Source: Bacteroidia bacterium
Lineage (GTDB): Bacteria > Bacteroidota > Bacteroidia > UKL13-3
Assembly: GCA_044351265.1 (NCBI GenBank)
Contig: JBILGC010000003.1
Coordinates: 22,886 to 86,885, forward strand
Direction of reading: 5' to 3'
DNA: 64,000 nt
Position numbers and translations under genes: made by a program. The notes under the pieces were generated by a model. The model had not been told where the DNA came from and did not search any database. It worked only from the letters and a program-made list of their open reading frames with translations. This document shows positions 6,016 to 30,997 of the stretch, one piece after another; the first letter of the stretch is position 1; each line of letters starts with the position of its first letter.

Positions 6016-6075
6016 AGTAAGGGTATTGTTAAAATTGCGGCAAGATAAGTTCTTATTCTCACCTGAGGAACTGAT

Positions 6076-7155: not shown

Positions 7156-7207
7156 GACAATGGGCGAAATTAACTTTTTACATTCATAAACTTTTTACCA
7201 TATTTGA

Positions 7208-11306: not shown

Positions 11307-12386
11307 GTGTTTAGATATTTTTTTTCAATACTAATTGTTTGTTTTTGTTTTCTGAAACTTTCTGCTCAGGATACTGCCTTTTATATAAATAAGAAAGGAA
11401 TAAAGTATACACGTGCTGATTATGTTGATGACAAAACAGGCTTTATACAGATAACACCTTTTCTTTATAACTCCAGAAATCACTTTGAATTACAGGATAA
11501 ACGCGTGCTCACATTTGAACCTAATGAGAGCGTGAATGTAGGTGTAAAGCTAATGCATAAATGGCTGGGAGTGGCCTTTTCTGTTGGCATTAAAAACACC
11601 CAAGCCGAAAGAAGAGGCAATACAGACTATGTTAATTTTCAGTTGAACAGTTATGGCAAAAAAGTAGGATTCGATATTTACTACTCAGACTATACCGGAT
11701 ATTACCTAGAGAACTACAGAAAGTTTGCTGAGCTGGCAGAAGCTTATGGAAATAGATTCCCGGTGCGATCTGATATCAGCACCACCAGCATTGGCGCTAA
11801 TACTTACTATATTTTTAACCATAAAAAGTATTCTTATCGCTCCACTTTTGTTCACAATGAAATACAGAAAAAAAGTGCAGGCTCAGTACTGCTCAATGCC
11901 TCTATTTCTTATTTTAGAATTAGCGGAGACTCCGCCATAGTGCCGAGGGGTATTAATAGCTTTTACGAGGATCGATCTCGATTTGAAGATGGTAATTTTT
12001 ATAGTATGTCCTTGCTACCCGGATATTCTCACACACTGGTACTGTTTAAACGTTTTTTTATTACAGGGGCTTTGCTCTTAGGGGTTACCGGGCAGTATCA
12101 GGAATTCTCACAAGAAGATGAATCAAATCAAACAAGATGGGTTGCATTGCCACGTGGCATGTCGAGATTTGGTTTTGGATACAATGGCAATAAATTTTAT
12201 GCCGGGCTTACCTCTATGGCCGATGCCTACAATTTACCACTGGGAAACCAATCCAGATTAACCTATTTCATTGCAAGCGGCTCTGTTTATTTTGGTATAC
12301 GATTGCAGGTGCCAAAAGTATTGAAGAAAATATCAAACGGTATGGACTATTATTCTCCTGCACTTATTTTCCATCACTCCCGCTAG
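11307..12386 (+). CDS. Uncharacterised outer-membrane protein (signal peptide, beta-rich; possibly DUF4421-like)
   Basis: Signal peptide MFRYFFSILIVCFCFLKLSAQ. Alternating aromatic/hydrophobic pattern typical of beta-barrels. No recognisable enzymatic motif. Confidence 0.35.
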   Translation: MFRYFFSILIVCFCFLKLSAQDTAFYINKKGIKYTRADYVDDKTGFIQITPFLYNSRNHFELQDKRVLTFEPNESVNVGVKLMHKWLGVAFSVGIKNTQAERRGNTDYVNFQLNSYGKKVGFDIYYSDYTGYYLENYRKFAELAEAYGNRFPVRSDISTTSIGANTYYIFNHKKYSYRSTFVHNEIQKKSAGSVLLNASISYFRISGDSAIVPRGINSFYEDRSRFEDGNFYSMSLLPGYSHTLVLFKRFFITGALLLGVTGQYQEFSQEDESNQTRWVALPRGMSRFGFGYNGNKFYAGLTSMADAYNLPLGNQSRLTYFIASGSVYFGIRLQVPKVLKKISNGMDYYSPALIFHHSR

Positions 12387-13299
12387 TTGGCGGCTTGTGC
12401 TTCCAGCGCCTGTGGCTCCATAACCATATTTCAGGACAACTGATGATATCCTTCTCCAGCATACGCGTATAGGTTTCCGTAATTTCATTTTCTTTAGTTG
12501 CAGCAGGTTGATCCGATACCAACTGAAAACTTACATGGTAATATCCCCTTCTTAACCTTTTCACCGAGGCATATAGCACCGGAAAGTTCAACTTTTTAGC
12601 CATGAATTCAGCACCTGTTAAAACAGGTGTGGGCTGATTAAGAAAAGTTAGCCACAAAGCATCTTTAGGATTGGAAGGTGTTTGATCGGCAATAAAAGCA
12701 GTGATGGTTCTTTCCTTGCGCGAAGCAATCATTCTTTTTGCTGCATGATGCATATTGAGTAAATTCATCCCAAATCGCATCCTGAATTTTGCAGTAAGCC
12801 AATTAAAAAACGGATTTTTGATTGGATGATATAATACATAAGAAGAATATGGATGATGCATCATAAACGATTGTCCGGCCCACTCCCAGTTGCCCCAATG
12901 ACCTAATACCATAATTACACTTTGGTTATTAGTATAGAAAGAATCAACCAATTTTATGGATTGCTCATCATATGTACAGTGCTTTTTTAGTTGTACTTTA
13001 CTAATTGTTGAAACTTTATAGGTCTCAATCATCAAATCAATTAAGTAGCGGTAATATCTTTTAGCTATGATATCAATTTCTGCAGATGTTTTTTGAGGAA
13101 AAGCATTTCTTAAATTATTATACACCACCTTTCTTCTATAGCCAAGCAGATAGTACATAAAATAATAAATCATATCAGACAAAATGTACAAAAATGGCAT
13201 AGGCAGCATCATTAGAAGAACAAATGGCGCTGCCAATAAGTGATAATACCATTTTGCCTTGAATGTATCTGACATGGTTTTGCTTATAATAGTTTTCAA
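12364..13299 (-). CDS. Lipid A biosynthesis (Kdo)2-lipid IVA acyltransferase family protein (LpxL/HtrB-like)
   Basis: N-terminal membrane anchor, HWGNWEW (the HX4D/E-type acyltransferase region) and a C-terminal PEIWLWSHRRWKHKP resembling the LpxL C-terminus (EQYMWLHRRFKTRP). 311 aa. Confidence 0.75.
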   Translation of the reverse strand: MKTIISKTMSDTFKAKWYYHLLAAPFVLLMMLPMPFLYILSDMIYYFMYYLLGYRRKVVYNNLRNAFPQKTSAEIDIIAKRYYRYLIDLMIETYKVSTISKVQLKKHCTYDEQSIKLVDSFYTNNQSVIMVLGHWGNWEWAGQSFMMHHPYSSYVLYHPIKNPFFNWLTAKFRMRFGMNLLNMHHAAKRMIASRKERTITAFIADQTPSNPKDALWLTFLNQPTPVLTGAEFMAKKLNFPVLYASVKRLRRGYYHVSFQLVSDQPAATKENEITETYTRMLEKDIISCPEIWLWSHRRWKHKPPTSGSDGK

Positions 13300-19120: not shown

Positions 19121-19706
19121 AAGCTTTTTATTTCTTTCTGTTTTTTATATCCTGTATGGTTGCACCGGATCTGATAAGTCTTATATCCAATCCATCACAG
19201 AACAGCACAAACAATATGCTGCATCTTTCACAGATACTGCACAATCACCGCTTGACTCAGCAGAACGCATTGCTTTTAAAGGTGTAGCTCATTTCGTGCC
19301 CGATAAAAATTATAAAGTGACAGCGAAAGTGCTATGGCTGCCATACACCGGTGCTGTTGATTTACCTCACTCAAGGGGAGATTTCAGACCCTATTTTCAG
19401 GCGGCTCAATTAAACTTTACAATTAATGGTAATGATTATTCATTAATTGGATATCAAAATGAAAAAATGCGCACACAGCGTATCTTATTTGTACCGTTTG
19501 CTGATGCAACCAACAGCAATGAAACTTATGGTGGTGGGCGCTATATGGATATTTCATACGTACCCAATGCTTCAGAAACTGTGATGGATTTTAATTTGAG
19601 TTATTACCCCTACTGTGCATACAGCCATCGCTATTCATGCCCTATTGTGCCAAAGGAAAACTCCCTGAACATTGCTATCCGTGCAGGTGAGCGTAACAGT
19701 CACTAG
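19113..19706 (+). CDS. DUF1684 domain-containing protein
   Basis: 197 aa with the C-terminal motif YYPYCAYSHRYSCPIVPKENSLNIAIRAGE, characteristic of DUF1684 (YC.Y...CP..P.EN.L...I.AGE). An 8-nt overlap with the upstream gene suggests translational coupling. Confidence 0.6.
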   Translation: MNKSFLFLSVFYILYGCTGSDKSYIQSITEQHKQYAASFTDTAQSPLDSAERIAFKGVAHFVPDKNYKVTAKVLWLPYTGAVDLPHSRGDFRPYFQAAQLNFTINGNDYSLIGYQNEKMRTQRILFVPFADATNSNETYGGGRYMDISYVPNASETVMDFNLSYYPYCAYSHRYSCPIVPKENSLNIAIRAGERNSH

Positions 19707-20794
19707 TAGCTAAAAATAATTCTGAAATCTAGAAAATTGGCTACCTGACGGTGGGCTAGCACATTCATGCCAACACCCAAATTGTCACTTAATCGATACA
19801 GCAAACCATAACGCTGAAAAACCGGGTCGAAATAACCACTCGGGTTAAAAAGGTAAACACCCAGTTGCTGACTAAAAATTATCTTACCCATTAAAAATTC
19901 ATGACCACCGGTAATGGCTGCACGCTGATTGCTGATATCAGTTTTCCCATCTCGCTTGAGTCTTTCCCTAAGTGAATTATCAATATTCCACTCTGCCCCC
20001 AAGGTAAGAGCGTTAAATATGCCGGTTTGCTTGCTTACCTGCGCAGTTATGCCTCCTATCATCCATCTTTCTTTTTCTCCGGCCTGCACCGTTTTACTCG
20101 ACCAATATACACTTATATCAAAACGGGGCGGTTTGCCTTTGTAATTTTTATATTTTGTTTTTTCTCTTATAGGGAGTGATGCCGCTATAGGCCTATAATC
20201 TATTCCCAAAGCAGCGGTTGGCCAGTTTACACCTTTATTCGGATCTTTGATGCCTCCATTAGATACATGGTTGTAATGAATATAGGCACTCATATTTAGC
20301 CTTTCAGAAAGTTTAACATGTGCACCTAATCCTAATGAAACAAAACCTGTGATAGGTAAACTGTAAGACAAATTATTTGGATTATTTATGGGATGATAAG
20401 GATTGGTTAAGTAGGATAATCCGGCTGCTGCTTTTATTGCCATGTTGATGCGATGCGTGAAAGAAAAGTATGGTTCTATAAACGCAGCTGTCGTAATAGC
20501 ATGACCTAAACTCTGATTATCAAAAGTAAAGTACTGAATAAAAAAACCTGTTTTTGGATAGCAATAGCACGTGTTCCAGGTTTTGGCATCAGCCAATTGC
20601 CAGTTAAAATCAAACTGAAAACCTGTGGGATAGGAATTGGCTGTATTCTGCACCTCTTTACTATGTGCAAAAATAAAACCCTTGTGTAGGGTTGCGCCAT
20701 AGCTGAAAATACTGCGCAGCGAATCTTGCTGAGCATTGGCAGTAAAGACAATGGCATGCATTAAAATAAGTAGCGCATTTTTTATTCCCATCAT
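19703..20794 (-). CDS. Outer-membrane beta-barrel protein, possibly acyloxyacyl-hydrolase/PagL-like
   Basis: Signal peptide MMGIKNALLILMHAIVFTANAQ, beta-barrel-like composition, ends ...RIIFSY (aromatic terminus). The family assignment is tentative. Confidence 0.35.
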   Translation of the reverse strand: MMGIKNALLILMHAIVFTANAQQDSLRSIFSYGATLHKGFIFAHSKEVQNTANSYPTGFQFDFNWQLADAKTWNTCYCYPKTGFFIQYFTFDNQSLGHAITTAAFIEPYFSFTHRINMAIKAAAGLSYLTNPYHPINNPNNLSYSLPITGFVSLGLGAHVKLSERLNMSAYIHYNHVSNGGIKDPNKGVNWPTAALGIDYRPIAASLPIREKTKYKNYKGKPPRFDISVYWSSKTVQAGEKERWMIGGITAQVSKQTGIFNALTLGAEWNIDNSLRERLKRDGKTDISNQRAAITGGHEFLMGKIIFSQQLGVYLFNPSGYFDPVFQRYGLLYRLSDNLGVGMNVLAHRQVANFLDFRIIFSY

Positions 20795-20882: not shown

Positions 20883-22226
20883 TTATTTCTTGCGTATCAG
20901 GTAATAAATAGGAATACCTGCCAATACAATAGCAAGACCCGGATACGTAAAAACCGGCTTATATATTAGTAGGCTGATACATATAAAAATAGCAATTACA
21001 ATATAAAGAGCAGGAAGTACGGGATAACCCCACACCTGATATGGTCTTAAGGCATCAGGTTCCTTTTGTCTGAGAATAAATACCCCGGCAACGGTAAGTA
21101 TGTAAAAAAGCATGACCGCAAAAACCACATAATCCAATAAATCACCATATGAGCCGCTAAGGGTAAGTATGCTGGTCCAGATGGCTTGCATAATTAAAGC
21201 AGCCTGTGGAGAATCATGATTATTTTTTGTAGCCGCCCGTTTAAAAAATAAACCGTCAAGTGCCATAGCATAATAAACCCTTGCACCTGATAAAGTGATT
21301 CCATTGATACAGCCAAAAGTAGAAATCATAATAAATGCAGCCATTACATACATACCAACTTCACCTAAAACAGTTTGCAACAATAATGTACCAACACGGT
21401 CTGATGGTGCATGCTGTATGGCATTGAAAGGTAATATACCAATATAAATCCAGTTTATAAAAACATATAAAGCAGAAACGCTGAGTGTGCCAATAAGCAG
21501 TGATAAAGGTAAATTTCTTTGTGGTGCCTCAATCTCTCCGCCTGTGAAAGTTATGTTGTTCCATGCATCAGCAGAAAATATTGAACCAACCATAGCTGCG
21601 CAAAACAATCCCCAGTATGAAAAGCCGTTAGCGTTGGCAGAAAAAGACAGAGAAGTCTGTTGCGCTCCATGCAAATAAAGATGATACAGACCTGCAATTA
21701 CCAAAAAAACTATAGCACCGATTTTTGTGAGTGTAAATATATTTTGAAGCCATGCGCCATTTTTTACCGGAAGGAAATTGAACAATGTGAGGAACCAAAT
21801 AACCGCAAGTGCAAGCATCTGTTGAGATTGTATTTTAATAAACCCTAAATTGAGGAGAATGACTTGATCCGATATTAACGGAAAGAAGACTCCACTAAAC
21901 TTGGCAAATGCAACCGCAACTGCAGCAATGGTTCCTGTTTGTATAACGGCAAAGAGGGTCCACCCGTATAAAAATCCAAACAGCTTATTATAGGCACGTT
22001 GTAAATACACATATTGACCTCCTGCTTTAGGCATCATGGCAGAAAGTTCGCCATAACTTAAGGCTGCCATTACCGTTATAAGTGCAGTTACAATCCATGC
22101 GAAGAGGAGCATAAGCGGGGACTGCAAATCACGGCTCATAGCAGCAGGCACTATAAATATTCCTGACCCAATCATGCTGCCCATAATGAGCATTACACAA
22201 TCAAGCAAACCCAACTTTTTATTCAT
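20883..22226 (-). CDS. Amino acid permease (APC family)
   Basis: 447 aa with 12 predicted TM helices. N-terminus LLDCVMLIMGSMIGSGIFIVPAAM is the APC signature region. Confidence 0.8.
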   Translation of the reverse strand: MNKKLGLLDCVMLIMGSMIGSGIFIVPAAMSRDLQSPLMLLFAWIVTALITVMAALSYGELSAMMPKAGGQYVYLQRAYNKLFGFLYGWTLFAVIQTGTIAAVAVAFAKFSGVFFPLISDQVILLNLGFIKIQSQQMLALAVIWFLTLFNFLPVKNGAWLQNIFTLTKIGAIVFLVIAGLYHLYLHGAQQTSLSFSANANGFSYWGLFCAAMVGSIFSADAWNNITFTGGEIEAPQRNLPLSLLIGTLSVSALYVFINWIYIGILPFNAIQHAPSDRVGTLLLQTVLGEVGMYVMAAFIMISTFGCINGITLSGARVYYAMALDGLFFKRAATKNNHDSPQAALIMQAIWTSILTLSGSYGDLLDYVVFAVMLFYILTVAGVFILRQKEPDALRPYQVWGYPVLPALYIVIAIFICISLLIYKPVFTYPGLAIVLAGIPIYYLIRKK

Positions 22227-22345
22227 AAGCTAATTTAATGAAAACGAATATAGGAATTGTTTGTAGTTCGAAGAGGTATGGGATCTGACTTTTTACTGAA
22301 TAACAATGAAAATTATAGATCGGAATGATTAACTGCTCTTAGAAA

Positions 22346-23302
22346 CTATCTTGACAGTAAAAACATCAGGGGTATATGAAGCCTTTTATGCCAAGCATGT
22401 TCACTATGATCTGCTCCTTCATCATAATAAGTTAGCCAGTTAGTTTGATTGTATTTCATTTTATGCATTACTTCATCTACATTTTTTTGTAAGAGAGGAT
22501 ATAGCGCATCCAATGTTTGATTACCGCAATCAAAATAAATATGGTGATTAGCGGGATTAGGTATTTGTATCTCAAGATAAAGCTGCATGGCTAACGGGAA
22601 TGGATTGTTTTGAAGGGTGAACGTACCGGGCCAGTGCGTGGATAGGCATGCTGCACCTCCAAATACCTCCGGATACTCGCATATTGCATATAAAGATATT
22701 AACCCACCCATGCTGCTGCCGGCAATAAAAGTGTGCTCCTGGGTTGTATACACCGAATAACTTATATCAATCTTTGGCTTTAATTCACTCACAATAAATT
22801 TCAGGTAATTATCAGATTGTGGTTTAAATGCTGCTGTTGCGCGTCCAACGTTTTGTAATTGTGAGCTTATGGTATCTCGCTCTATTTGGTTAAGCAAGAG
22901 TTCAAAAGGCTTTTGAGGAAAGTAATCTGCGTGCCTTGTTTGCCCGCCATTCCAAATACCCACCACAATAAAGTTTTTCACCTTGCCTGCTTGCATAAGT
23001 TGTGCAGCAACCTCATCTACTTCCCATGCCTGCTTATTCCATGTATTGGCAGAGTCGAATAACATTTGTCCATCGTGCATATACAATACATCATACCTGC
23101 CCGAATCAGGATAGCCCGGGGGAAGCCAAATATCAATATTACGAGGTGTTACAAACTTTGATTGAAAATCACGAATGCGTTCAACTTTTCCTAAAGTAGC
23201 TTTAGGTAAGGCATCCTGTGCATGTAAGTTAAAAAGTGAAACGCAGCAAACAAACAAAAGCAATATTCTTTTACCTAAGATTGGTTGCATGTGGCTACCC
23301 AT
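22346..23302 (-). CDS. Secreted esterase-family alpha/beta hydrolase
   Basis: Signal peptide. GxSxG nucleophile elbow IAGSSMGG. DVLYMHDGQMLFD is typical of the putative esterase / enterochelin-esterase-like family. Confidence 0.7.
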   Translation of the reverse strand: MGSHMQPILGKRILLLFVCCVSLFNLHAQDALPKATLGKVERIRDFQSKFVTPRNIDIWLPPGYPDSGRYDVLYMHDGQMLFDSANTWNKQAWEVDEVAAQLMQAGKVKNFIVVGIWNGGQTRHADYFPQKPFELLLNQIERDTISSQLQNVGRATAAFKPQSDNYLKFIVSELKPKIDISYSVYTTQEHTFIAGSSMGGLISLYAICEYPEVFGGAACLSTHWPGTFTLQNNPFPLAMQLYLEIQIPNPANHHIYFDCGNQTLDALYPLLQKNVDEVMHKMKYNQTNWLTYYDEGADHSEHAWHKRLHIPLMFLLSR

Positions 23303-23343
23303 TTTAGTTAAACTTAGATGATTTATAACTCCTTATACCAACC

Positions 23344-26286
23344 CTACTTACCACCGAGCGCATAATATCTGTTCATGCATTCCTGCGCCTCGGCTGATTT
23401 GCCTTGTTTATTAAATACCTCCGCAAGCAGGCGGTATGACATTGCACTTTTTTGATCTAAGGTGAGCGCCAGTATCAGGTTATCTTCAGCTTTTTTATAG
23501 CTACCCGTATTGTAATATCCTAAACCAAGGTTGTAATAAACATCTGCAACACTTCCGCCACCTCGTTTCACAGCCATTTCAAGAAACTTAAGCCCTGCCC
23601 CGAAATCTCCTTTCTGATAATGGGCCATAGCTGTGTAATAGTAAGCATCGGTATAATTGAATTTATAACTATTGGCTTTCTTGAAATACTCAATAGCTTT
23701 ATCCGGATTTTTATTCAGGTTAATTTCTACCAAACCAAGAGTAGACCATGCCATATAATTTTCAGGATAAATATCAATTGCTTTATTTAAATTTCTGATA
23801 GCCTCAGGAGCGTTGCCTTTACTTAGATAGCATAAACCCAGCATTCTAAAAACTTCTTCATCTTTTGGATTATAAGCTGCTGCCTGATTGAAGTAAAAAA
23901 TAGCCGTATCGAAATTTCTGGCCTCAAAATACTGATAACCTTTAGGCATCCAATTGTTCTCTCTTTTAACAACAGCAGCCAACGGAATACCGTCAGCCAT
24001 TACTGTATATACTGTACCTTTAGGTGGGAAGGCACCGGCTTCCAGTTCTTTCGATGAAAAGGTACGTGAGGTGAGTATGGCATAATCCCACGGCAACTTT
24101 TGCTCTTCATATTCACGCATCCACCTAAATTCCATATCCGGATTGTATTTATTGGCGTAGTAAGATGCTGTGAGTGGCTCATTATTTATGCCCACTATCA
24201 TTTTTTTATTTGGCTCTTGTTTAGCTATCCACTCTGCTGCCTCACGGCATGAGTTGGAATAATAATCCATTTCATATTTACCATAAGCACCTTTAGTGCC
24301 CCCACTTACAGCATTAAAATACACACACTCGTTCGGATGATTTTGTAACATCCAGGATGCAGGGAGAGCACATAAAAGCAACACACCTGCCAATGATGCA
24401 TAACTTGTAATTTTGTTTTTAGTGATTACACCTAAGCCATCCCAGCCGCAAGCAGCAAGTATTACTATTGGCGGATAAACAAACAAGTAATGCCTCCACC
24501 CATTATAATAATACATGCTCTGGACTTCGGCATATGCAATTGGGAAAACTGCAACAAATATTACTATGCCTATGGCATACCAATTTTTATAGTTCCTTTT
24601 TAAAACCCATAGTAACGAAACAAGAAGAGCAATGCCCAACCAAACGACTTCAGGAGTATTGATAAAAATAAATTTAGGTAAATAATACCAGGGTACATTT
24701 GCCATATACATGCGCACACCTTCAAACAACTCATGGTTAAAAGTAAAATATGCCCCTTCGGTTGATTTTTTCAGCGCTTCATACCAATTGGCAAAAGGCT
24801 GCTGCTGTGCAAATGGCCATAATGAAATACCAACCAAGTGACCAACGATAACAATGAGCAGTAAAATACGCGCATAAGGCCAAATTAGTTTAATAGCATT
24901 TGACATACCTTCTTTTTTAACAACAAGCAGCCAGGAAATACCTAAAAATAAACCAACATAAGCATACCAGATGATGCCTCCTACGCGTGAGCCAATGGCC
25001 ATACCAATACCGGCACCGCATAAAACCAAGTGCAATAAAGCAGGCTTAGGCAGCTGCTGAAGTATCTTTATTAAATAATAGAGTGCCATTGCACACCCTG
25101 CAGCAAATGGAATATCAGTAGGGTTATTCATGCTGTGTGCAAAAAATACAGGGCTGCAAAAAATGATTATAAATGCAAAAAATGCTCCGCGCCAAGATGT
25201 AATTTCTTTAGCAGCAAGAGCAGCAAACAACATGGCTAACAGTCCATACAACGCATTAAGCAAATGACGCATTTCAAATTCGCCCAACACACCAAAATAG
25301 GTATTAAAAAACGCACTGATTACATTAAAATGTTCTCCGTAATATCTGAACTCCTGTATAGGTGATGTAGCAGATAATGCCGTTGAATCGCTTCCAAATG
25401 AGGTAAAATAATTAAGCATCTGGTAGCCATACTGGTTATGGCGTTTGGCATCCCAGGTTATACCAAAGTCCTGACTAAAATAAGGCATGGCAATACATGC
25501 GAACAGAAAAAATGCAGCAAAAAGCAAACGATATAAGGGTTGGTATCCTGCCGTATCTTCTGCACCAAATTGCATCAGCGGATCTTTGATAAACCAGCTA
25601 ATTCGTGGACCAAGAATATTGCTTACTATCTTTTTAAAACTAACCTTACGCAACTGATGCTCTTTTGCCGAAAGTGTGATTGCAACAACAGGTGTGCTTA
25701 AATAGGCAAGGCGGCTGCAAACAGAAATGCTTTTATGGTGATTGCTATTAAACCCTTTTACTGCAGCATCTCTACCAAAAAATACAAATGGATGTGTGTA
25801 ATCTTTTAAACCTGCAGGTAAGAGCATGCCTGCAAGCAGATTGTATAAACCAATACCTGTTTTTTGTAAAATGTTTATTGGCAACTTGCCCGACTGGGCA
25901 TTAAACTCACCAACATAAACTGCATCCAATTCTGTAAATGATTTTTTGTTCAATCCAAAACAACTTACCACAGCCTGTGGCATAAATGAAGTTGTATCAT
26001 TAACCACATAAACAACCTTTCTGCAATGCTCTGCCCAATCTTTGAAACTAGCTATAACATGACATCTGCCTTTTTCTTTGAGTGCTAAAACATCGGGGAG
26101 GTTTGCAACCACACCACTTTTATCAAACACAATTAATGATGACTCTGTACGCACTTTTAATAAAGCCTGAGCCACCATATTTGCATCATCGGGCTTTTTA
26201 GCGGCATCAAATAAAAAGGTAAGCTCTTGGTCGCTCACCGTTTTTATTTGTTCTGCTGAAGGTTTGGTTGTATTCTTTTTGCTCAT
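23344..26286 (-). CDS. GT-C-fold membrane glycosyltransferase-like protein (DUF2723/GT117- or PMT-like), with C-terminal TPR repeats and a distinct N-terminal cytoplasmic domain of about 230 aa
   Basis: 980 aa. Residues about 240-700 have at least 11 hydrophobic helices. The C-terminal 230 aa have at least 5 TPR-like repeats (AYNPKDEEVFRMLGLCYLSKGNAPEAIRNL..., YMAWSTLGLVEINLNKNPDKAIEYFKKA..., YYNLGLGYYNTGSYKKAEDNLILALTLDQ...). A 4-nt overlap with the upstream FAD enzyme gene suggests an operon. Confidence 0.55.
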   Translation of the reverse strand: MSKKNTTKPSAEQIKTVSDQELTFLFDAAKKPDDANMVAQALLKVRTESSLIVFDKSGVVANLPDVLALKEKGRCHVIASFKDWAEHCRKVVYVVNDTTSFMPQAVVSCFGLNKKSFTELDAVYVGEFNAQSGKLPINILQKTGIGLYNLLAGMLLPAGLKDYTHPFVFFGRDAAVKGFNSNHHKSISVCSRLAYLSTPVVAITLSAKEHQLRKVSFKKIVSNILGPRISWFIKDPLMQFGAEDTAGYQPLYRLLFAAFFLFACIAMPYFSQDFGITWDAKRHNQYGYQMLNYFTSFGSDSTALSATSPIQEFRYYGEHFNVISAFFNTYFGVLGEFEMRHLLNALYGLLAMLFAALAAKEITSWRGAFFAFIIIFCSPVFFAHSMNNPTDIPFAAGCAMALYYLIKILQQLPKPALLHLVLCGAGIGMAIGSRVGGIIWYAYVGLFLGISWLLVVKKEGMSNAIKLIWPYARILLLIVIVGHLVGISLWPFAQQQPFANWYEALKKSTEGAYFTFNHELFEGVRMYMANVPWYYLPKFIFINTPEVVWLGIALLVSLLWVLKRNYKNWYAIGIVIFVAVFPIAYAEVQSMYYYNGWRHYLFVYPPIVILAACGWDGLGVITKNKITSYASLAGVLLLCALPASWMLQNHPNECVYFNAVSGGTKGAYGKYEMDYYSNSCREAAEWIAKQEPNKKMIVGINNEPLTASYYANKYNPDMEFRWMREYEEQKLPWDYAILTSRTFSSKELEAGAFPPKGTVYTVMADGIPLAAVVKRENNWMPKGYQYFEARNFDTAIFYFNQAAAYNPKDEEVFRMLGLCYLSKGNAPEAIRNLNKAIDIYPENYMAWSTLGLVEINLNKNPDKAIEYFKKANSYKFNYTDAYYYTAMAHYQKGDFGAGLKFLEMAVKRGGGSVADVYYNLGLGYYNTGSYKKAEDNLILALTLDQKSAMSYRLLAEVFNKQGKSAEAQECMNRYYALGGK

Positions 26287-27713
26287 TTTCTTACCAATCC
26301 GGTTTTAGTAATTACAGAACTCTCCTGATAACTTTCGTAGTCGGTATTTATATCCCAAAGGTTATGCCCTGTCTGTTGCAAAATATTTTCGGCAGCCAGC
26401 ATACCCATTAGTATGGAATGATCCTGGTTGTTGTATTTAAATGCGCCATATCGGCCAATAACATGCAGATGCTGAATGCTGCTTAAATATTGCTCAACCG
26501 GGTTCAGAATTTCCTTGTAACCTTTTGAGTAAACAGGATAGCAACGCGGAATGCGATAGGTATGTGCATGTAAAATTTTAGCATCACCAATTAATCCGGT
26601 CTTACGTATTTCCTCCTCGCCCAATTTATTCAGTTGTTCATCTGTCCATTTCCAGAAATCATCTTCATCATAGCACCAATATTCCAAAGCAAGTATGCTA
26701 GTGGTTTTATCCTTATATAATTGTGGAACCCAGTTTCTGAAATTGGTGATGCGCCCTGTGCGCAAATCTGTTGAATGCACATACAGCCAATTATCTTCAA
26801 ACAAATTTGTTGCATCAACTTCAACAAATACTATAATGGTGTTTCTGAAACGCAGCTGCGCATTCAGATTTTTAATTTGCTCCGGGGCCTCATCAATTCT
26901 ACTTACCAAAAGTGTTATCGGCATGGAAGAAATAATATGATCATAATATTTCACCTCGCCATTTTCCAGTTCTAATCCTTTGGCTACTCCGCCCTCAACA
27001 ATTACCCGTTTTACAGGCGTTTTTAAAAACACATTCCCGCCTTTTTCTTTAATCAGATTCTCCATTCGGTTATACACCATGCCTGTTCCCTCAAGCGGAT
27101 AAGCAAATTCGTCTACCAGGGTTTTATGTTTTTTATTTTTATCGCCAAATAATGCAGCCTTAGCAGCCTCCCACAGGGATAGTTTTTTAATACGCTGTGC
27201 GGCAAAATCAGCATCTAGTTCGTTGCATTGAATACCCCAAAGTTTTTCGCTGTAGGTTTTAAAAAATATTTCATAAAGCCTTTTCCCGAAGCGGCTGCGA
27301 ACCCACCCCTCAAAAGTGCTTTTATCTCTGGTTGGAAATATTCTTTCCATTCCAAAACTGAGCATGCAGCGGGCTGCTTCAAATAAGCCCAGTTTGCTTA
27401 ATGCATCAAGTGCTTTAATGGGGTAGTAATACAGGTTATTTTTATAGAGAATGCGTGTAAGGCGATTCACCATTGCATAATCTTCTTTCACTACTTCAAG
27501 CCATAGCGAATTAACACGTGTATCGCTGCTAAAAAAACGATGTGGACCAATATCCACGGTTTGGCCCCATAGCTCAACCGACTTTGCAAGCCCACCAACC
27601 GAAGGACCTGCCTCATATAAATCAACCGATGAAATTTCTTTGCTTAACTGATAGGCAGCAGTAATACCAGCAGGGCCGGCACCAATAACAGCTACTTTTA
27701 TGGATTTACTCAC
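26283..27713 (-). CDS. FAD/NAD(P)-binding amine-oxidase-fold oxidoreductase (UDP-galactopyranose-mutase / protoporphyrinogen-oxidase superfamily)
   Basis: N-terminal dinucleotide fold VAVIGAGPAGITAAYQLSK...VDLYEAGPSVGGLAKS. C-terminal GRYGAFKYNNQDHSILMGMLAAENIL resembles the C-terminal FAD-binding segment of mutase/amine-oxidase-type flavoenzymes. 476 aa. Confidence 0.6.
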   Translation of the reverse strand: MSKSIKVAVIGAGPAGITAAYQLSKEISSVDLYEAGPSVGGLAKSVELWGQTVDIGPHRFFSSDTRVNSLWLEVVKEDYAMVNRLTRILYKNNLYYYPIKALDALSKLGLFEAARCMLSFGMERIFPTRDKSTFEGWVRSRFGKRLYEIFFKTYSEKLWGIQCNELDADFAAQRIKKLSLWEAAKAALFGDKNKKHKTLVDEFAYPLEGTGMVYNRMENLIKEKGGNVFLKTPVKRVIVEGGVAKGLELENGEVKYYDHIISSMPITLLVSRIDEAPEQIKNLNAQLRFRNTIIVFVEVDATNLFEDNWLYVHSTDLRTGRITNFRNWVPQLYKDKTTSILALEYWCYDEDDFWKWTDEQLNKLGEEEIRKTGLIGDAKILHAHTYRIPRCYPVYSKGYKEILNPVEQYLSSIQHLHVIGRYGAFKYNNQDHSILMGMLAAENILQQTGHNLWDINTDYESYQESSVITKTGLVRK

Positions 27714-27753
27714 AATACGCTTTACTTAATAATAAGTTGTAAAGAAAAGACCT

Positions 27754-28302
27754 TTACGATACTTTTTCAAATACAAATACGTGATTAAGCCCAAACTGGA
27801 AAATTTTATGCCTCAGCAGTTTAAATTGCGGTGGAGCAAAGATGTTGGGAGTATCAGCTGTTTTGAAGCCATAGTGCTCCTCTAGCGACATGCCATCTAT
27901 GATGCGAAATAGGCGTAAAACCACCAAAATATAATCAACCAAGGGCGAGGGAACGGTGATGATAACCCTGCCTTTAGGCTTCAGATGTTGATGGCAAGCT
28001 TCAGCCAGTTTATGTTGTGCCTGAGGTGGTATGTGCTCCAGCACAGCCAACATGGTAATACAATCAAACTGTTCACCTGGTGCAAAGGCATCCGGAAATA
28101 TTCCTTTAACCAAACGGTAAGTGCCTGCGTCTGCATTTTCAGCAAGCGGATCCACACCCGCACCTGTAATTTTTTGATGCTGCAACTGCTTGAAAAGTAC
28201 CCCATCATAACTTCCAATATCCAAAACATGAGCGCCTGTATTAATGAATACCGCAGCCTGTGTAATTCTTTGCTTTTGCAGCAAGTAATCAAACGCCTTC
28301 AT
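27754..28302 (-). CDS. Class I SAM-dependent methyltransferase
   Basis: Motif I VLDIGSYDGVL and a post-I acidic region. 182 aa. A 4-nt overlap with the upstream GT2 gene. Confidence 0.7.
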   Translation of the reverse strand: MKAFDYLLQKQRITQAAVFINTGAHVLDIGSYDGVLFKQLQHQKITGAGVDPLAENADAGTYRLVKGIFPDAFAPGEQFDCITMLAVLEHIPPQAQHKLAEACHQHLKPKGRVIITVPSPLVDYILVVLRLFRIIDGMSLEEHYGFKTADTPNIFAPPQFKLLRHKIFQFGLNHVFVFEKVS

Positions 28303-29462
28303 CGCTTGCGGTTAAGGGTAAGAACACTTAAAAAGAAACTTGAAAAAATGGTTTGAATACCAAGGATGATAAAAACAACTGAAGGTATAACCACACGCAG
28401 AATAGACGAGTATTCAAGCGTTCCAAAATCAACCTGATCCCAAAGGTATAATGAGTATGCCGACCCTGCTATTCCCGCAAGCGTAACAAATACACCTGCA
28501 ACAATTCCTCGCTCAAGCGTAAGCCATTTTTCAATAAGTGAAATAGTTTTCTTATCAGGCATGAGTCCCGCTTGAATGGCATACCTGCGTGTAAAAATAC
28601 CAAACACCATTAACTGAAAACCAATGATGGCAGCCGCTCCCGAATAAAGCATTGTATTGGTATCGAAATAAATATTAAACAAATGAACAGGGCCATTAAT
28701 AATAAGCGAACCTGATATAATACCTGATAAAATGAGCAAGATACCCGGGTACAGAAATAACCAGCGCGGACTATAAATGAGTAAAAATCGGAGATGCCTC
28801 CAGCCGTCCTGCCATGTGCGCAAGTGCGGTGGTCGGCTGCGTCCCGCTACACTCAATGTAGTTGGCACTTCGCAGATGCGCAGCTTAAATAAACTAGCTT
28901 TTACAATCATTTCACTGGCAAACTCCATACCTGTGGTACGCAGATTTAAGAGTGATACAATATCTTGCCTAAAGCCACGGAGGCCGCAATGAAAATCGTT
29001 TACGGAGGAGTTAAAGAAAAGCTTTCCGATAAAGGAAAGAACCGGATTACCAAGATATTTATGTAAAAAAGGCATGGCGCCCTTGCTTATGCCACCCTTA
29101 AATCTGTTGCCAACTACCAAATCATATCCCTCTCGCAATTTTTCAATAAAAGGATTCAGGGAAGAAAAATCATAGCTGTCATCTGAATCACCCATGATTA
29201 CATACTTGCCATATGCAGCTTCGATGCCGTACATCAATGCACTCCCATAGCCCTTCTCGGGTGCATGCACCACACGGGCACCCAACTTTTCGGCAATAGC
29301 AATGGAGCCATCAGTGCTTCCGTTATCAGAAACTATTACTTCTCCGCTGATATTATTCTGCCTTATGTAACGCAATGCTTTTTCAATGCATTCGCCAATG
29401 GTTTCGGCCTCATTTAGGCAAGGCATTACAATAGATAATTCAAGATTATGTTCCGGGGTCAT
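28299..29462 (-). CDS. Family 2 glycosyltransferase, polyprenyl-phosphate sugar synthase type (GtrB/DPM1/ArnC-like), with C-terminal membrane helices
   Basis: LSIVMPCLNEAETIGECI...VIVSDNGSTDGS...YVIMGDSDDSYDF (a GT-A DxD region), then about 4 C-terminal TM helices. 387 aa. Confidence 0.8.
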   Translation of the reverse strand: MTPEHNLELSIVMPCLNEAETIGECIEKALRYIRQNNISGEVIVSDNGSTDGSIAIAEKLGARVVHAPEKGYGSALMYGIEAAYGKYVIMGDSDDSYDFSSLNPFIEKLREGYDLVVGNRFKGGISKGAMPFLHKYLGNPVLSFIGKLFFNSSVNDFHCGLRGFRQDIVSLLNLRTTGMEFASEMIVKASLFKLRICEVPTTLSVAGRSRPPHLRTWQDGWRHLRFLLIYSPRWLFLYPGILLILSGIISGSLIINGPVHLFNIYFDTNTMLYSGAAAIIGFQLMVFGIFTRRYAIQAGLMPDKKTISLIEKWLTLERGIVAGVFVTLAGIAGSAYSLYLWDQVDFGTLEYSSILRVVIPSVVFIILGIQTIFSSFFLSVLTLNRKR

Positions 29463-29477
29463 TGCAACGAAAATAGC

Positions 29478-29485
29478 AAAATTAA
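29478..29485 (-). promoter_or_regulatory. Candidate Bacteroidota sigma-A -7 box (TAATTTTG) about 15 bp upstream of the GT2 start codon
   Basis: Minus-strand TAATTTTGCTATTTTCGTTGCAATG matches the TAnnTTTG consensus known for Bacteroidetes promoters. Inference only. Confidence 0.25.
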
Positions 29486-29750
29486 GGGGAAGGGAAAATT
29501 GGATTGTTGGAAGGTTATTATGGGTTGGTTATTGAAAGATAAGAGGATTGATTTTATGCCTTTATGCAGTTGAGTAGTATATAAGTTGAGTGGCTTAACA
29601 TTTAAAATTCATAACTTAGCTATTAGCCGTTCGAAGTTCAGTGTTCGAAGCTTTTTAACTTAATGTTCATCATCTAATATTTCTTCTCGTCTATCGCTTC
29701 TTTCCTCTTTCAGCAAAGGGGTCTTTCCTCTCTTATCTCGCTTCTTCCCT

Positions 29751-30245
29751 CTACTTCCCTGCAAAAGGAATATCTATGGCATCGCCCCACAATTCCTCTA
29801 CTGCATAAAACTCACGCTTCTCCTCCTGAAAAACATGCGCCACCACATCGATATAATCCAACAACACCCACTCAAGGTTTTCGTATCCTTCACGGTGCCA
29901 AGGCCATTCTTTAAATACCTTAAAAACTTCTTCTTCTACTGAATCTCCAATGGCTTCTACTTGTTTATCTGATTTTGCATGACAAATTACAAAGAAGTCG
30001 GCTGATGCTTTATCAATATTGCGCATGTCTAAAATACGAATATCCTCTGCCTTTAACTCAAACATACCCTGGGCTACAGCTTTGGCTAAAGCCATGCTGC
30101 TGTAAGTGGTAATATCTGCAACTTTCTTTGTTTTGGGTCTTTCAGCTTTAGGTTTGGTGCTTACTTTTTTTGCTGCTGTTTTTTTAGGAGCCGCTTTCTT
30201 CTTTGCGGGTTCTTTCTTCGCCATTTTTTCTATCTTTGGCTGCAA
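29751..30245 (-). CDS. rsfS: Ribosome silencing factor RsfS (Iojap family) with a K/A-rich N-terminal extension
   Basis: The core SSMALAKAVAQGMFELKAEDIRILDMRNI...FFVICHAKSDKQVEAIGDSVEE...EGYENLEWVLLDYIDVVAHVFQEEKREFYAVEELWGDA matches RsfS/Iojap. The first about 45 codons encode MAKKEPAKKKAAPKKTAAKKVSTKPKAERPKTKKV. The true start is uncertain. Confidence 0.8.
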   Translation of the reverse strand: MQPKIEKMAKKEPAKKKAAPKKTAAKKVSTKPKAERPKTKKVADITTYSSMALAKAVAQGMFELKAEDIRILDMRNIDKASADFFVICHAKSDKQVEAIGDSVEEEVFKVFKEWPWHREGYENLEWVLLDYIDVVAHVFQEEKREFYAVEELWGDAIDIPFAGK

Positions 30246-30997
30246 AGGTAAACATTTTGCACCATCACATCGGATCTTCTGTAATTTGGCTTGACGAAAC
30301 AGACTCTACCAACCGGGTAGCCAAGCAAATGGCCGAAGAAACCAGTTGTAAAGATGGTACTATAATTTGCGCACATTATCAGCAGGCTGGCAGGGGGCAA
30401 GGAGCAAATGTGTGGGAATCGGAAAAGGGGAAAAACTTAACACTAAGTGTGGTATTGTTTCCGCATGCATTAACCATACAGGAGCATCTCAGAGTAAATC
30501 TGATAATGAGTTTAGCTGTTTATGATTTTATTTCAGCTATACATCCTGAGGATATTTTTATCAAATGGCCCAATGATATTTACGCAGGTGGCAAGAAAAT
30601 TTGTGGCCTACTCATAGAAAACAGCTTACAGGGCGAACTCATTAGACAAAGCATCTGTGGTGTAGGTATTAATATCAATCAAACCGAATTTATTAATTCC
30701 AACGCAACCTCTTTGAAACAGCTTACCAAACAAAACTATCAGCTTGAATCCATACTTGCTTCATTCATACTACATTTGCAAAAGAGAATAAACTCCATGT
30801 ATACGCAGGATATGAATAAACTGATTGGCTGTTATGAAGAGGTGTTGTACCGCAAAGGGTTAGCCACCAGTTTTATGGTAAACCAAAGCCCACTCCAAGC
30901 CACGCCTATTGGGATTACAGCAGAAGGACTGCTGCGCATGCAAACACAAGATAGCCTTATCCAAATCAGACATAATGAAGTGAAATGGCTGCAATAA
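30203..30997 (+). CDS. birA: Biotin--[acetyl-CoA-carboxylase] ligase
   Basis: IWLDETDSTNRVAKQMAEE...HYQQAGRGQGANVWESEKGKNLTLSVVLFP and KWPNDIYAGGKKICGLLIE are BirA catalytic-domain motifs. The annotated ATG at 30203 would overlap the divergent rsfS start. The real start is probably a TTG/ATT codon near 30255-30262 (..ILHHHIGSSVIWLD). Confidence 0.8.
   Translation: MRVLSSPFFLSLAAKVNILHHHIGSSVIWLDETDSTNRVAKQMAEETSCKDGTIICAHYQQAGRGQGANVWESEKGKNLTLSVVLFPHALTIQEHLRVNLIMSLAVYDFISAIHPEDIFIKWPNDIYAGGKKICGLLIENSLQGELIRQSICGVGININQTEFINSNATSLKQLTKQNYQLESILASFILHLQKRINSMYTQDMNKLIGCYEEVLYRKGLATSFMVNQSPLQATPIGITAEGLLRMQTQDSLIQIRHNEVKWLQ

What the first reader, a model, noticed from the sequence alone, without database searches (positions are those of the whole stretch)
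26283..27713. Amine-oxidase/UGM-fold flavoprotein as a partner of a lipid-linked glycosylation module
The 476-aa protein has an N-terminal GxGxxG fold and a C-terminal GRYGAFKYNNQDHSILMGMLAAENIL segment. This is reminiscent of the FAD-closing helix of UDP-galactopyranose mutase or amine-oxidase-type enzymes. It is translationally coupled to the GT-C/TPR gene. A flavin mutase or oxidase acting on a (lipid-linked) sugar, such as a pyranose-to-furanose conversion or C-oxidation, would parallel the DprE1 role in locus B. The exact reaction is an open question.
Basis: inference. Interest (0 to 1): 0.55.

Follow-up and report, generated by a model that had tools for sequence, protein, structure and literature searches.

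The report
Uncharacterised bacterial UGM-like sugar mutase
This gene encodes a flavoprotein from a very large, unstudied bacterial family that keeps the whole catalytic site of the enzyme that converts six-membered-ring galactose into its five-membered-ring form, and it travels with membrane machinery that attaches lipid-carried sugars outside the cell, so it probably supplies an unusual ring-contracted sugar for surface glycosylation.

Summary
The gene at 26283..27713 (-) encodes 476 aa with a GxGxxG motif and the quoted C-terminal motif. Its stop overlaps the start of the GT-C/TPR gene in an ATGA.

The protein belongs to NCBIfam NF005548 (PRK07208.1-4, named only "hypothetical protein"), at 544 bits against a cut-off of 389. 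It is not a protoporphyrinogen oxidase or a carotenoid desaturase.

The exact GT2–MT–flavoprotein–GT-C/TPR operon recurs only in the closest relative (84% identity). Across phyla, though, the gene sits beside GT2, GtrA and polytopic GT-C-like genes. Family members also occur fused to GtrA, to GT2, to GT2+GT-C, to a flippase-like domain and to NDP-sugar enzymes.

Best reading (confidence 0.55): a reduced-flavin NDP-sugar pyranose/furanose mutase that feeds a lipid-linked, extracytoplasmic glycosylation module. The substrate sugar, and whether it is nucleotide- or lipid-linked, remain untested. I found no publication on the family. I rate it a new variant of a known kind, of moderate interest.

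The parts
26283..27713 (-). UGM-like FAD protein, 476 aa, member of NCBIfam NF005548 (PRK07208.1-4).
   Evidence: (544 bits against cut-off 389).
27666..27683 (-). GxGxxG dinucleotide-binding motif (G11-A-G13-P-A-G16).
   Evidence: Pfam NAD_binding_8 at 1.4e-14.
27540..27548 (-). Histidine loop G56-P57-H58, equivalent to AfUGM G61-G62-H63.
   Evidence: His is present in 108 of 110 family representatives. The middle residue is G (53) or P (49).
27192..27194 (-). R174, equivalent to AfUGM R182 (the mobile-loop Arg that positions the diphosphate and sugar).
   Evidence: Arg is present in 102 of 110 representatives.
26751..26753 (-). R321, equivalent to AfUGM R327 (the essential Arg; R327A is inactive).
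   Evidence: Arg is present in 108 of 110 representatives.
26379..26456 (-). C-terminal motif GRYGAFKYNNQDHSILMGMLAAENIL, carrying R421 (=R447), Y427 (=Y453), N429 (=N457) and Q430 (=Q458).
26283..26286 (-). ATGA stop/start overlap between the flavoprotein gene and the GT-C/TPR gene.
23344..26286 (-). GT-C (PMT/PMT_2) membrane glycosyltransferase, 980 aa, about 10 TM, with C-terminal TPR repeats and a ~240-aa N-terminal region that matches no Pfam family.
   Evidence: The ortholog in L086 is 65.5% identical over the full length.
27754..28302 (-). SAM-dependent methyltransferase, 182 aa (Methyltransf_23). It lies 40 nt upstream of the flavoprotein gene and overlaps the GT2 gene by 4 nt.
   Evidence: It is conserved only in L086 (72.5% identity). 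A GT2-Methyltransf_23 fusion protein occurs in a relative's cluster.
28299..29462 (-). GT2 glycosyltransferase, 387 aa, with about 4 C-terminal TM helices. It resembles polyprenyl-phosphate sugar synthases (AglJ, dolichyl-P-hexose transferase, PpgS), all below their cut-offs.
   Evidence: The L086 ortholog carries the PF26629 GT2_TM_C annotation.

Best explanation
The gene encodes a soluble, cytoplasmic FAD enzyme with the three-domain fold and complete catalytic constellation of UDP-galactopyranose mutase. It most likely works as UGMs do. The reduced flavin N5 attacks C1 of a nucleotide-diphospho-pyranose and displaces the NDP, which two arginines and two tyrosines hold in place. The sugar ring opens through a flavin-iminium intermediate and recloses as a furanose, and the NDP then re-attacks. 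In this operon the NDP-furanose would be taken by the adjacent membrane-anchored GT2 to make a polyprenyl-phosphate-furanose. That lipid-linked sugar would be flipped across the membrane and used by the translationally coupled GT-C/TPR enzyme to glycosylate an extracytoplasmic acceptor, possibly a protein, by analogy with the TMTC architecture. The small methyltransferase would add an O-methyl group at some stage.

Shown here: the fold, family membership, conservation of the catalytic residues, the operon structure, and the recurrent association and fusion with glycosylation genes.

Inferred: mutase activity, the identity of the sugar and nucleotide, the lipid-linked furanose intermediate, the acceptor, and the role of the methyltransferase.

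For: (b) The active site is retained. The published active-site table (PMC3322874) lists nine residues identical in all five UGMs. All nine map to the query as H58, Y154, W159, R174, R321, E344, Y392, R421 and Y427. Each is present in 100-108 of 110 representatives that are 31-52% identical to the query, and 89 of 110 keep all nine together. Of 31 near-invariant family columns, 27 are identical in TcUGM.

(c) The nucleotide-pocket residues are retained: F150, F151, Y154, T/S155 (Thr as in bacterial UGMs), W159 and Y97.

(d) The reciprocal test agrees. TcUGM's best NCBIfam hits are PRK07208.1-3 and .1-4 (135 and 132 bits, full length), and the classical bacterial UGM model does not appear in the list.

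(e) Fusions to cytoplasmic NDP-sugar enzymes point to an NDP-sugar substrate. These are a 4,6-dehydratase/epimerase-type SDR, a GFO/IDH/MocA oxidoreductase resembling UDP-GlcNAc 3-dehydrogenase, and a PglD N-domain.

(f) The enzyme is linked to lipid-carrier glycosylation. Fusions occur to GtrA (P0131, P0147), to GT2 (P0162), to GT2+PMT_2 (P0160) and to a flippase-like LPG_synthase_TM domain (P0227). The FAD-GtrA fusion gene is followed 2 nt later by a PMT_2 gene. The identical four-gene operon occurs in different flanks in L086. A polytopic membrane protein is adjacent in 7 of 8 Bacteroidota loci. In 33 distant loci, neighbours include GT2 (8), GtrA (5) and PMT_2 (2), plus about 10 large 8-16-TM proteins.
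Against: No activity data exist for any member of the family, as far as I could find.

The protein scores far below the curated cut-offs of the UGM models: TIGR00031 at 36.7 bits against 303.75, and Pfam GLF at 18.4 against 26.3.

Several substrate-contacting positions differ from AfUGM. Q107, a uracil contact, is K100 in the query and variable across the family. N207 on the sugar flap is V200, and I/V/T across the family, within an invariant HKTLVDxFAYP stretch that UGMs lack. G62 is Pro in the query. So UDP-Galp itself may not be the substrate.

The window's operon encodes no flippase, and none was found in the parts of the window scanned.

The GT2 domains fused to family members belong to a different GT2 subfamily from the window's GT2.

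One Bacteroidota ortholog (L085) has no glycosylation neighbour.

The model has low confidence at residues 423-427, next to the flavin-side motif.
Confidence: 0.55

Rival explanations
1. The enzyme uses the same flavin-mutase chemistry but acts on the lipid-linked sugar. It would convert polyprenyl-P(-P)-pyranose to the furanose at the membrane, after the GT2 step and before flipping, analogous to DprE1/DprE2 remodelling decaprenyl-P-ribose.
For: Family members are fused to membrane domains that handle lipid-linked sugars: GtrA, a flippase-like LPG_synthase_TM domain, GT-C/PMT_2 and 8-10-TM domains. In the window the gene lies between the GT2 and the GT-C and is coupled to the GT-C. Epimerisation at the lipid-linked stage is the established logic in the pentofuranose three-component systems (PMC11127046).
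Against: The residues that bind uridine and ribose in UGMs are near-invariant in the family (F150, F151, Y154, K157, W159). That conservation would be unexplained for a polyprenyl substrate. Fusions to cytoplasmic NDP-sugar enzymes point to NDP-sugars. The window protein has no hydrophobic segment. A membrane fusion could equally serve to channel a scarce NDP-furanose to the next enzyme.
Confidence: 0.15
2. The protein is a conventional redox flavoenzyme of the amine-oxidase/PPO/CrtI superfamily, for example a sugar or lipid C-oxidase or desaturase, or a protoporphyrinogen oxidase as JGI annotates it. On this reading its resemblance to UGM reflects shared ancestry only.
Against: Scores for the PPO and CrtI models are far below their cut-offs and mostly cover only the N-terminal Rossmann motif: TIGR00562 at 43 bits against 97.85, and TIGR02734 at 38.5 against 238. 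UGMs outrank PPO by sequence and by both structure methods. The full UGM catalytic set is conserved across the family, including the diphosphate-binding Arg and Tyr residues, which have no role in PPO or CrtI. No haem or carotenoid genes occur near the gene in the window or in 10+ relatives.
Confidence: 0.12
3. The protein is simply an isofunctional UDP-galactopyranose mutase, a second non-Glf type of bacterial UGM. It would make UDP-Galf for ordinary cytoplasmic Leloir galactofuranosyltransferases, and its neighbourhood with GT-C genes would be incidental.
For: The catalytic and most nucleotide-pocket residues match UGM. Some relatives sit in ordinary Wzx-type polysaccharide clusters with GT2 and GT4 enzymes. 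Some orthologs have no GT neighbour. Known nucleotide-sugar genes such as glf are often unlinked to their transferases (established knowledge).
Against: The fusions to GtrA, GT-C and a flippase-like domain, and the repeated adjacency to polytopic membrane proteins across phyla, are too frequent to be incidental. Sugar-flap and uracil-contact residues differ from those of UGMs.
Confidence: 0.13

Closest known systems
Eukaryote-type UDP-galactopyranose mutase (A. fumigatus UgmA/AfUGM, T. cruzi and L. major UGM; EC 5.4.99.9)
   Different: Identity is only about 22%. TcUGM scores 132-135 bits against the PRK07208 models, well below their cut-offs of 380-389, so the two are sister groups and not one family. 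The uracil contact Q107 and the sugar-flap residue N207 are replaced. Position 163 is Thr/Ser, as in bacterial UGMs. Two residues are deleted between Y427 and N429. The family is bacterial or archaeal, and is linked or fused to membrane glycosylation components.
Classical bacterial pyranose/furanose mutases (Glf/UGM TIGR00031 and PF03275; C. jejuni UNGM; the NDP-furanose mutases of Campylobacter capsules, e.g. HS41.17)
   Different: The classical enzymes are about 100 residues shorter. Sequence similarity to the query is detectable only over the N-terminal ~170 residues (E ~1e-10). The query scores far below the TIGR00031 and GLF cut-offs.
Three-component extracytoplasmic glycosylation systems: GtrA/GtrB/GtrC, and the pentofuranose systems of Kelly et al. 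2024 (PPPRS + MATE flippase + GT-C family GT136, with DprE1/E2-type or ORF13 epimerases)
   Same: The operon logic is the same: a membrane-anchored synthase of a polyprenyl-P-sugar, plus a GT-C transferase that acts outside the cytoplasm, plus an auxiliary cytoplasmic enzyme that sets the identity of the sugar.
   Different: In this operon the synthase is a GT2 and not a UbiA-type PPPRS. The auxiliary enzyme is a UGM-like flavoprotein and not a DprE1/E2 or SDR epimerase. No flippase gene is present in the operon. A lipid-linked hexofuranose donor is not described in the searchable literature.
Protoporphyrinogen oxidase / phytoene desaturase (the names given by automated annotation)
   Different: The curated cut-offs are not met, the substrate-domain residues are those of UGM, and there is no pathway context.

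Membership tests
NCBIfam NF005548 (PRK07208.1-4, 'hypothetical protein') | Whole-protein HMM score above the curated cut-off (389 bits). | tested here: met
   544.1 bits, E 2.7e-163, residues 6-471 aligned to profile positions 5-476 of 488.
UDP-galactopyranose mutase (functional class) | Three-domain UGM fold: FAD domain, helical domain and beta-sheet domain. | tested here: met
UDP-galactopyranose mutase (functional class) | The nine active-site residues identical in all five structurally characterised UGMs (AfUGM H63, Y162, W167, R182, R327, E373, Y419, R447, Y453; PMC3322874). | tested here: met
   In the query these are H58, Y154, W159, R174, R321, E344, Y392, R421 and Y427. The mapping agrees between the phmmer pairwise alignment and the MAFFT family alignment. 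All nine are kept in 89 of 110 representatives.
UDP-galactopyranose mutase (functional class) | Substrate-specific contacts for uracil and galactose (AfUGM Q107, N163, N207, N457). | tested here: inconclusive
   N457 is conserved as N429. N163 is S155 in the query and Thr in 72 of 110 representatives, as in bacterial UGMs. Q107 is K100 and variable. N207 is V200, and I/V/T across the family.
UDP-galactopyranose mutase (curated sequence models TIGR00031 and Pfam PF03275 GLF) | Score above the curated cut-off. | tested here: not met
   TIGR00031 scores 36.7 bits against 303.75, covering the N-terminal 170 residues only. GLF scores 18.4 bits against 26.3. Proven eukaryotic UGMs also fail the bacterial model: TIGR00031 is absent from TcUGM's hit list.
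UDP-galactopyranose mutase (functional class) | Redox-neutral interconversion of NDP-pyranose and NDP-furanose that requires reduced FAD. | not testable with these tools
   This needs an enzyme assay.
Protoporphyrinogen oxidase (HemY/CgoX) | Score above the cut-offs of the curated models, plus a haem-pathway context. | tested here: not met
   TIGR00562 scores 43.2 bits against 97.85. The NF008841 and NF008845 models score 46-52 bits against cut-offs of 517-560. No haem genes occur in the window or in relatives' loci.
Phytoene desaturase / CrtI family | Score above the cut-off, plus a carotenoid-pathway context. | tested here: not met
   TIGR02734 scores 38.5 bits against 238.1, and only residues 7-59 align. 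There is no carotenoid gene context.
Gtr-type three-component extracytoplasmic glycosylation system (operon level) | A membrane-anchored GT2 that makes a polyprenyl-P-sugar. | tested here: inconclusive
   The GT2 domain scores 2.2e-30 and is followed by about 4 C-terminal TM helices. The nearest curated models are AglJ, dolichyl-P-hexose transferase and PpgS, all below their cut-offs.
Gtr-type three-component extracytoplasmic glycosylation system (operon level) | A GT-C fold transferase. | tested here: met
   PMT scores 36.2 bits against a cut-off of 22.7, and PMT_2 scores 36.6 against 26.1, on residues 319-481 of the 980-aa protein, which has about 10 TM helices.
Gtr-type three-component extracytoplasmic glycosylation system (operon level) | A dedicated flippase (GtrA, MATE or Wzx type) encoded with the system. 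| tested here: not met
   None is present in the operon or in the window ORFs that were scanned. Five ORFs of the window were not scanned. In other lineages, GtrA is fused to or adjacent to the flavoprotein.

The most novel reading that the evidence does not exclude
PRK07208-type flavoproteins are a third, very large and mostly bacterial clade of flavin-dependent pyranose/furanose mutases, sister to the eukaryotic UGMs. On this reading they are specialised to feed lipid-carrier-dependent, extracytoplasmic glycosylation. In operons like this one they would generate a polyprenyl-phosphate-hexofuranose donor, for example Und-P-Galf or a methylated or 6-deoxy relative. That would be the hexofuranose counterpart of the recently described pentofuranose three-component systems, and the donor class is absent from the literature I could search. 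The clade could also mark the prokaryotic origin of eukaryotic UGM.
Probability: 0.35. Interest if true: 0.75.

Novelty: new variant of a known kind. Interest (0 to 1): 0.55.

Why it matters
Furanose sugars are absent from mammals, and UGM is a validated drug target in fungi, trypanosomatids, nematodes and mycobacteria.

If this family is a mutase clade, three things follow. First, thousands of genes now named 'protoporphyrinogen oxidase' or 'FAD-dependent oxidoreductase' would get a function. They span Bacteroidota, Acidobacteriota, Actinomycetota, Firmicutes, CPR bacteria and archaea. Second, it would predict unrecognised furanose-containing surface glycans, and a new class of lipid-linked hexofuranose donor used by GT-C enzymes. 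Third, it would provide the closest prokaryotic relatives of eukaryotic UGMs, which bears on the origin of that enzyme.

The claim is directly testable with standard UGM assays.

Tried and rejected
- **Partner search by single-sequence phmmer.** I searched 63 distant loci with the window's GT2, MT, GT-C and esterase. This found GT2 in 11 loci and no GT-C. The method is too insensitive for these families, so I replaced it with Pfam scanning of neighbours and TM counting.
- **Sigma-70 promoter and terminator scan of 22000..30400.** Promoter-like sites were fewer than in shuffled sequence, and the terminator-like sites lie inside genes. It gave no information on operon boundaries, and Bacteroidota promoters are not covered by the scan.
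- **The ~180-aa gene upstream of the flavoprotein gene in other Bacteroidota loci.** I asked whether it is the window's methyltransferase. It is not: it belongs to an unrelated lipoprotein family, which is absent from the window.
- **Pfam on the partner polytopic membrane proteins, with relaxed thresholds.** Most gave no hit. Only weak PMT_2 and YfhO signals appeared, so calling these proteins 'GT-C-like' rests on size, topology and position.
- **AFDB50 fold search.** The library was not available.
- **Literature searches.** I searched for PRK07208, lipid-linked galactofuranose, UGM with GtrA or GT-C, and pyranose-furanose mutase networks. None describes this family. The 'FAD-dependent oxidoreductases' in the pentofuranose-system commentary I take to be DprE1-type enzymes, which have a different fold. 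The Actinoplanes gsf cluster contains no member of the family.
- **Rejected: protoporphyrinogen oxidase and phytoene desaturase** (cut-offs, and context).
- **Rejected: the esterase downstream of the GT-C as part of the module.** In L086 that position is occupied by a lipid A acyltransferase-family gene.

Full report
**1. The observation**

The minus-strand ORF 26283..27713 (GTG start) encodes 476 aa. It has G11-A-G13-P-A-G16 near the N-terminus, and the quoted GRYGAFKYNNQDHSILMGMLAAENIL at residues 420-445. Its TGA stop overlaps the ATG of the next gene (23344..26286) in an ATGA. That next gene encodes a 980-aa protein with about 10 TM helices, PMT/PMT_2 hits above their cut-offs, and a C-terminal TPR array.

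Upstream, 40 nt away, lies a 182-aa Methyltransf_23 gene. It overlaps by 4 nt a GT2 gene of 387 aa that has about four C-terminal TM helices. That GT2's nearest curated models are archaeal AglJ, dolichyl-P-hexose transferase and PpgS, all sub-threshold. The gene is real: there are about 8000 homologs in the indexed search, and 1476 clusters at E<=1e-30 in the exhaustive search.

**2. What the protein is**

It scores 544 bits against NCBIfam NF005548 (PRK07208.1-4; cut-off 389), whose only name is 'hypothetical protein'. Public sources call it 'FAD-dependent oxidoreductase' or 'protoporphyrinogen oxidase'. The identical protein occurs in Bacteroidota/Sphingobacteriales MAGs.

Pfam sees only the generic Amino_oxidase and NAD_binding_8 domains, plus a sub-threshold GLF hit. 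PPO, CrtI and HpnE models score far below their cut-offs and mostly align only to the Rossmann motif.

Against solved structures, the best sequence matches are eukaryote-type UDP-galactopyranose mutases. T. cruzi UGM scores 1.7e-19 and aligns over residues 6-446, and A. fumigatus UGM scores about 1e-18. Classical bacterial UGMs follow at about 1e-10 (N-terminal 170 residues only), then B. subtilis PPO at 3e-7.

**3. Active site**

I took the active-site table of van Straaten et al. 2012 (PMC3322874), and did not rely on memory. Nine residues are identical in all five UGMs listed: AfUGM H63, Y162, W167, R182, R327, E373, Y419, R447 and Y453.

I reconstructed the TcUGM and AfUGM sequences from the HMMER alignments, and aligned them with the query and 110 full-length representatives that are 31-52% identical to the query. 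All nine map to identical residues in the query:

| AfUGM | Query | Present in (of 110) |
|---|---|---|
| H63 | H58 | 108 |
| Y162 | Y154 | 105 |
| W167 | W159 | 104 |
| R182 | R174 | 102 |
| R327 | R321 | 108 |
| E373 | E344 | 108 |
| Y419 | Y392 | 101 |
| R447 | R421 | 106 |
| Y453 | Y427 | 100 |

Of the 110 representatives, 89 keep all nine together. The eukaryote-type residues R91, Y104, W315, Y317 and N457 are also conserved, as R84, Y97, W309, Y311 and N429. Of 31 near-invariant family columns, 27 are identical in TcUGM.

Some positions follow the bacterial UGMs instead. Position 155 is Thr in 72 of 110, and position 430 is Gln in 62 and Met in 34. The differences from UGMs concentrate in substrate-specific contacts. 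Q107 becomes K100 and is variable. N207 becomes V200, and I/V/T across the family, inside an invariant HKTLVDxFAYP segment. G62 is Gly or Pro.

The reciprocal test also fits. TcUGM's best NCBIfam matches are PRK07208.1-3 and .1-4 (135 and 132 bits, full length), and the classical TIGR00031 model does not appear. Both scores are far below the family cut-offs, so eukaryotic UGMs are a sister group and not members. Query-TcUGM identity is 22.5%. The published identity between the two accepted UGM classes is 14-18% (PMC3624792).

**4. Is it co-conserved with glycosylation genes?**

The closest relative sampled (L086, 84% identity) has the same GT2-MT-flavoprotein-GT-C/TPR block in entirely different flanks. 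The GT-C there is 65.5% identical and the MT 72.5% identical. The four genes therefore move as a unit.

Orthologs at 67-69% identity have different but functionally similar partners:
- **L087:** MT-GT2-lipoprotein-FAD-Acyl_transf_3-GT_STM0557_N (10 TM)-GT2-MT.
- **L088:** lipoprotein-FAD-PMT_2-582 aa-UbiA-MT-HAD.
- **L081, L082, L089:** FAD-466 aa (8 TM)-GT2-DUF2304-deacetylase-acetyltransferase.
- **L083:** FAD convergent with a 577-aa 9-TM homolog of that 466-aa protein (32% identity, E 4e-48).
- **L085:** no such neighbour.

So a polytopic membrane protein is adjacent in 7 of the 8 Bacteroidota loci sampled, counting the window.

I also examined 33 loci from other phyla: Acidobacteriota, CPR, Verrucomicrobiota, Actinomycetota, Cyanobacteria, Firmicutes, Bifidobacterium and Fibrobacterota. 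Same-strand neighbours within two genes include GT2 (8), GtrA (5), GT4 (3) and PMT_2 (2) among 65 proteins. About ten are 8-16-TM proteins of 440-980 aa, and about nine are 2-4-TM proteins of GtrA size. No background frequency was computed, so this enrichment is qualitative.

**5. Fusions**

Of the 150 best representatives, 19 are at least 560 aa long. Those scanned include:

| Protein(s) | Architecture |
|---|---|
| P0131, P0147 | FAD + GtrA_DPMS_TM |
| P0148, P0152, P0158, P0255 | FAD + 2-4-TM tail, similar to the GtrA fusions |
| P0162 | FAD + GT2 + 2 TM |
| P0160 (1409 aa) | FAD + GT2 + PMT_2 |
| P0227 (archaeal) | FAD + LPG_synthase_TM / 'flippase-like' |
| P0172, P0239, P0251 | FAD + 8-10-TM domain with no Pfam match |
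| P0247 | 10-TM N-terminal domain (sub-threshold EamA hit) + FAD |
| P0164 | NDP-sugar 4,6-dehydratase/epimerase-type SDR + FAD |
| P0173 | GFO/IDH/MocA (nearest: UDP-GlcNAc 3-dehydrogenase) + FAD |
| P0229 | FAD + PglD_N |

The four fusion proteins P0162, P0164, P0173 and P0227 score 471-683 bits on NF005548, so they are true family members. P0229 scores 262 bits, below the cut-off.

In context, the FAD-GtrA gene is followed 2 nt later by a PMT_2 gene (L091). The triple fusion sits with a Wzx-type flippase, GT2s and a GT4 (L090). The SDR fusion sits in a large polysaccharide cluster that also contains a GT2-Methyltransf_23 fusion (L093), echoing the GT2/MT pair in the window.

One caveat applies. 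The fused GT2 domains are homologous to each other but only weakly similar to the window's GT2.

**6. Mechanism proposed**

The conserved diphosphate-binding Arg and Tyr set and the nucleotide-pocket residues point to a reduced-flavin NDP-sugar pyranose/furanose mutase. So do the fusions to cytoplasmic NDP-sugar enzymes and the absence of any hydrophobic segment.

The fusions to GtrA, GT2 and GT-C, and the operon itself, place the enzyme at the entry to a lipid-carrier glycosylation route. The proposed sequence is: mutase, then GT2 (making polyprenyl-P-furanose), then flipping, then GT-C/TPR.

Physical coupling makes sense because the furanose nucleotide is the minor species at equilibrium for UGM. 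That point rests on established knowledge and was not tested here.

The TPR-bearing GT-C has the architecture of the eukaryotic TMTC protein O-mannosyltransferases (PMC7801869, title and abstract seen), so a protein acceptor is possible. This is inference only.

I cannot exclude that the mutase acts on the lipid-linked sugar itself. The membrane fusions favour that idea, and the conserved uridine pocket argues against it. The substrate sugar is also open, because the flap and uracil contacts differ from those of UGMs.

**7. Comparison with what is known**

At the enzyme level this is a new clade of the UGM superfamily. It has a database model (PRK07208) but no assigned function. I found no paper on it.

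At the system level, the closest analogues are the Gtr systems and the pentofuranose three-component systems of Kelly et al. 2024 (PMC11127046). Those systems use a PRPP-dependent UbiA-type synthase and DprE1/E2- or SDR-type epimerases. They do not use a GT2 plus a flavin mutase. No lipid-linked galactofuranose donor appears in the searchable literature. In lactococci, Galf is added from UDP-Galf by cytoplasmic transferases (PMC10821137).

**8. Verdict**

The finding is a plausible, testable functional assignment for a very large family of unknown function. It is not a new kind of biology. I rate novelty as 'new variant of a known kind', interest at 0.55, and confidence in the NDP-sugar-mutase mechanism at 0.55.

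Noticed in passing
It has a YfhO-type GT-C (814 aa, 39607..42051 +) and an 11-TM 536-aa protein with no Pfam match (42058..43668 +). These are convergent with MT (43698..44342 -), GT2 of 242 aa (44355..45083 -), a DprE2-like SDR (45100..45843 -) and a DprE1-like FAD_binding_4 protein (45843..47159 -). An NAD-dependent epimerase follows (47289..48230 +). The DprE1/E2-type pair sits next to a GT2 and not next to a UbiA-type phosphoribosyl synthase, which suggests epimerisation of a polyprenyl-P-hexose. That differs from the known pentofuranose systems.
   Followed up: partly
L081:6439-6990 and 5637-6212; L087:7440-7970; L088:7374-7943; L089:7432-7986 and 6650-7207: A family of ~180-aa lipoproteins (signal peptide followed by Cys, no Pfam match) lies immediately upstream of the flavoprotein gene in four Bacteroidota loci, sometimes duplicated. 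It is unrelated to the window's methyltransferase and absent from the window. It may be an acceptor or accessory protein.
   Followed up: partly
L081:8437-9837; L089:9437-10837; L083:8438-10171 (minus strand): A family of 8-9-TM membrane proteins (466-577 aa) with no Pfam hit, even at E 0.5, lies adjacent to the flavoprotein gene in three Bacteroidota loci. It is a candidate for an undescribed GT-C-like transferase or transporter.
   Followed up: partly
window 25567..26286 (first ~240 residues of the GT-C/TPR protein): The GT-C/TPR protein begins with a non-membrane region of about 240 aa that has no Pfam match, before the first TM helix. The region is conserved in the L086 ortholog. Its function is unknown.
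   Followed up: no
L088:8001-15235: In one ortholog locus the UGM-like gene is followed by PMT_2, a 582-aa protein, UbiA, MT and HAD. The UbiA plus HAD-phosphatase pair resembles the polyprenyl-phosphoribose synthase and phosphatase logic of the pentofuranose systems. So the flavoprotein also co-occurs with a pentofuranose-type module.
   Followed up: no
L093:1039-2625: A single 528-aa protein fuses GT2 with Methyltransf_23, in the same cluster as the SDR-flavoprotein fusion. This supports a functional GT2 + methyltransferase pairing like the 4-nt-overlapping pair at window 27754..29462.
   Followed up: no
window 19703..20794 and 12364..13299: A PagL-like lipid A 3-O-deacylase domain protein (363 aa) and a lipid A acyltransferase-family protein flank the region. 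In L086, a Lip_A_acyltrans gene directly follows the GT-C/TPR gene. This may hint that the module's target is in the outer membrane or LPS. It was not examined.
   Followed up: no
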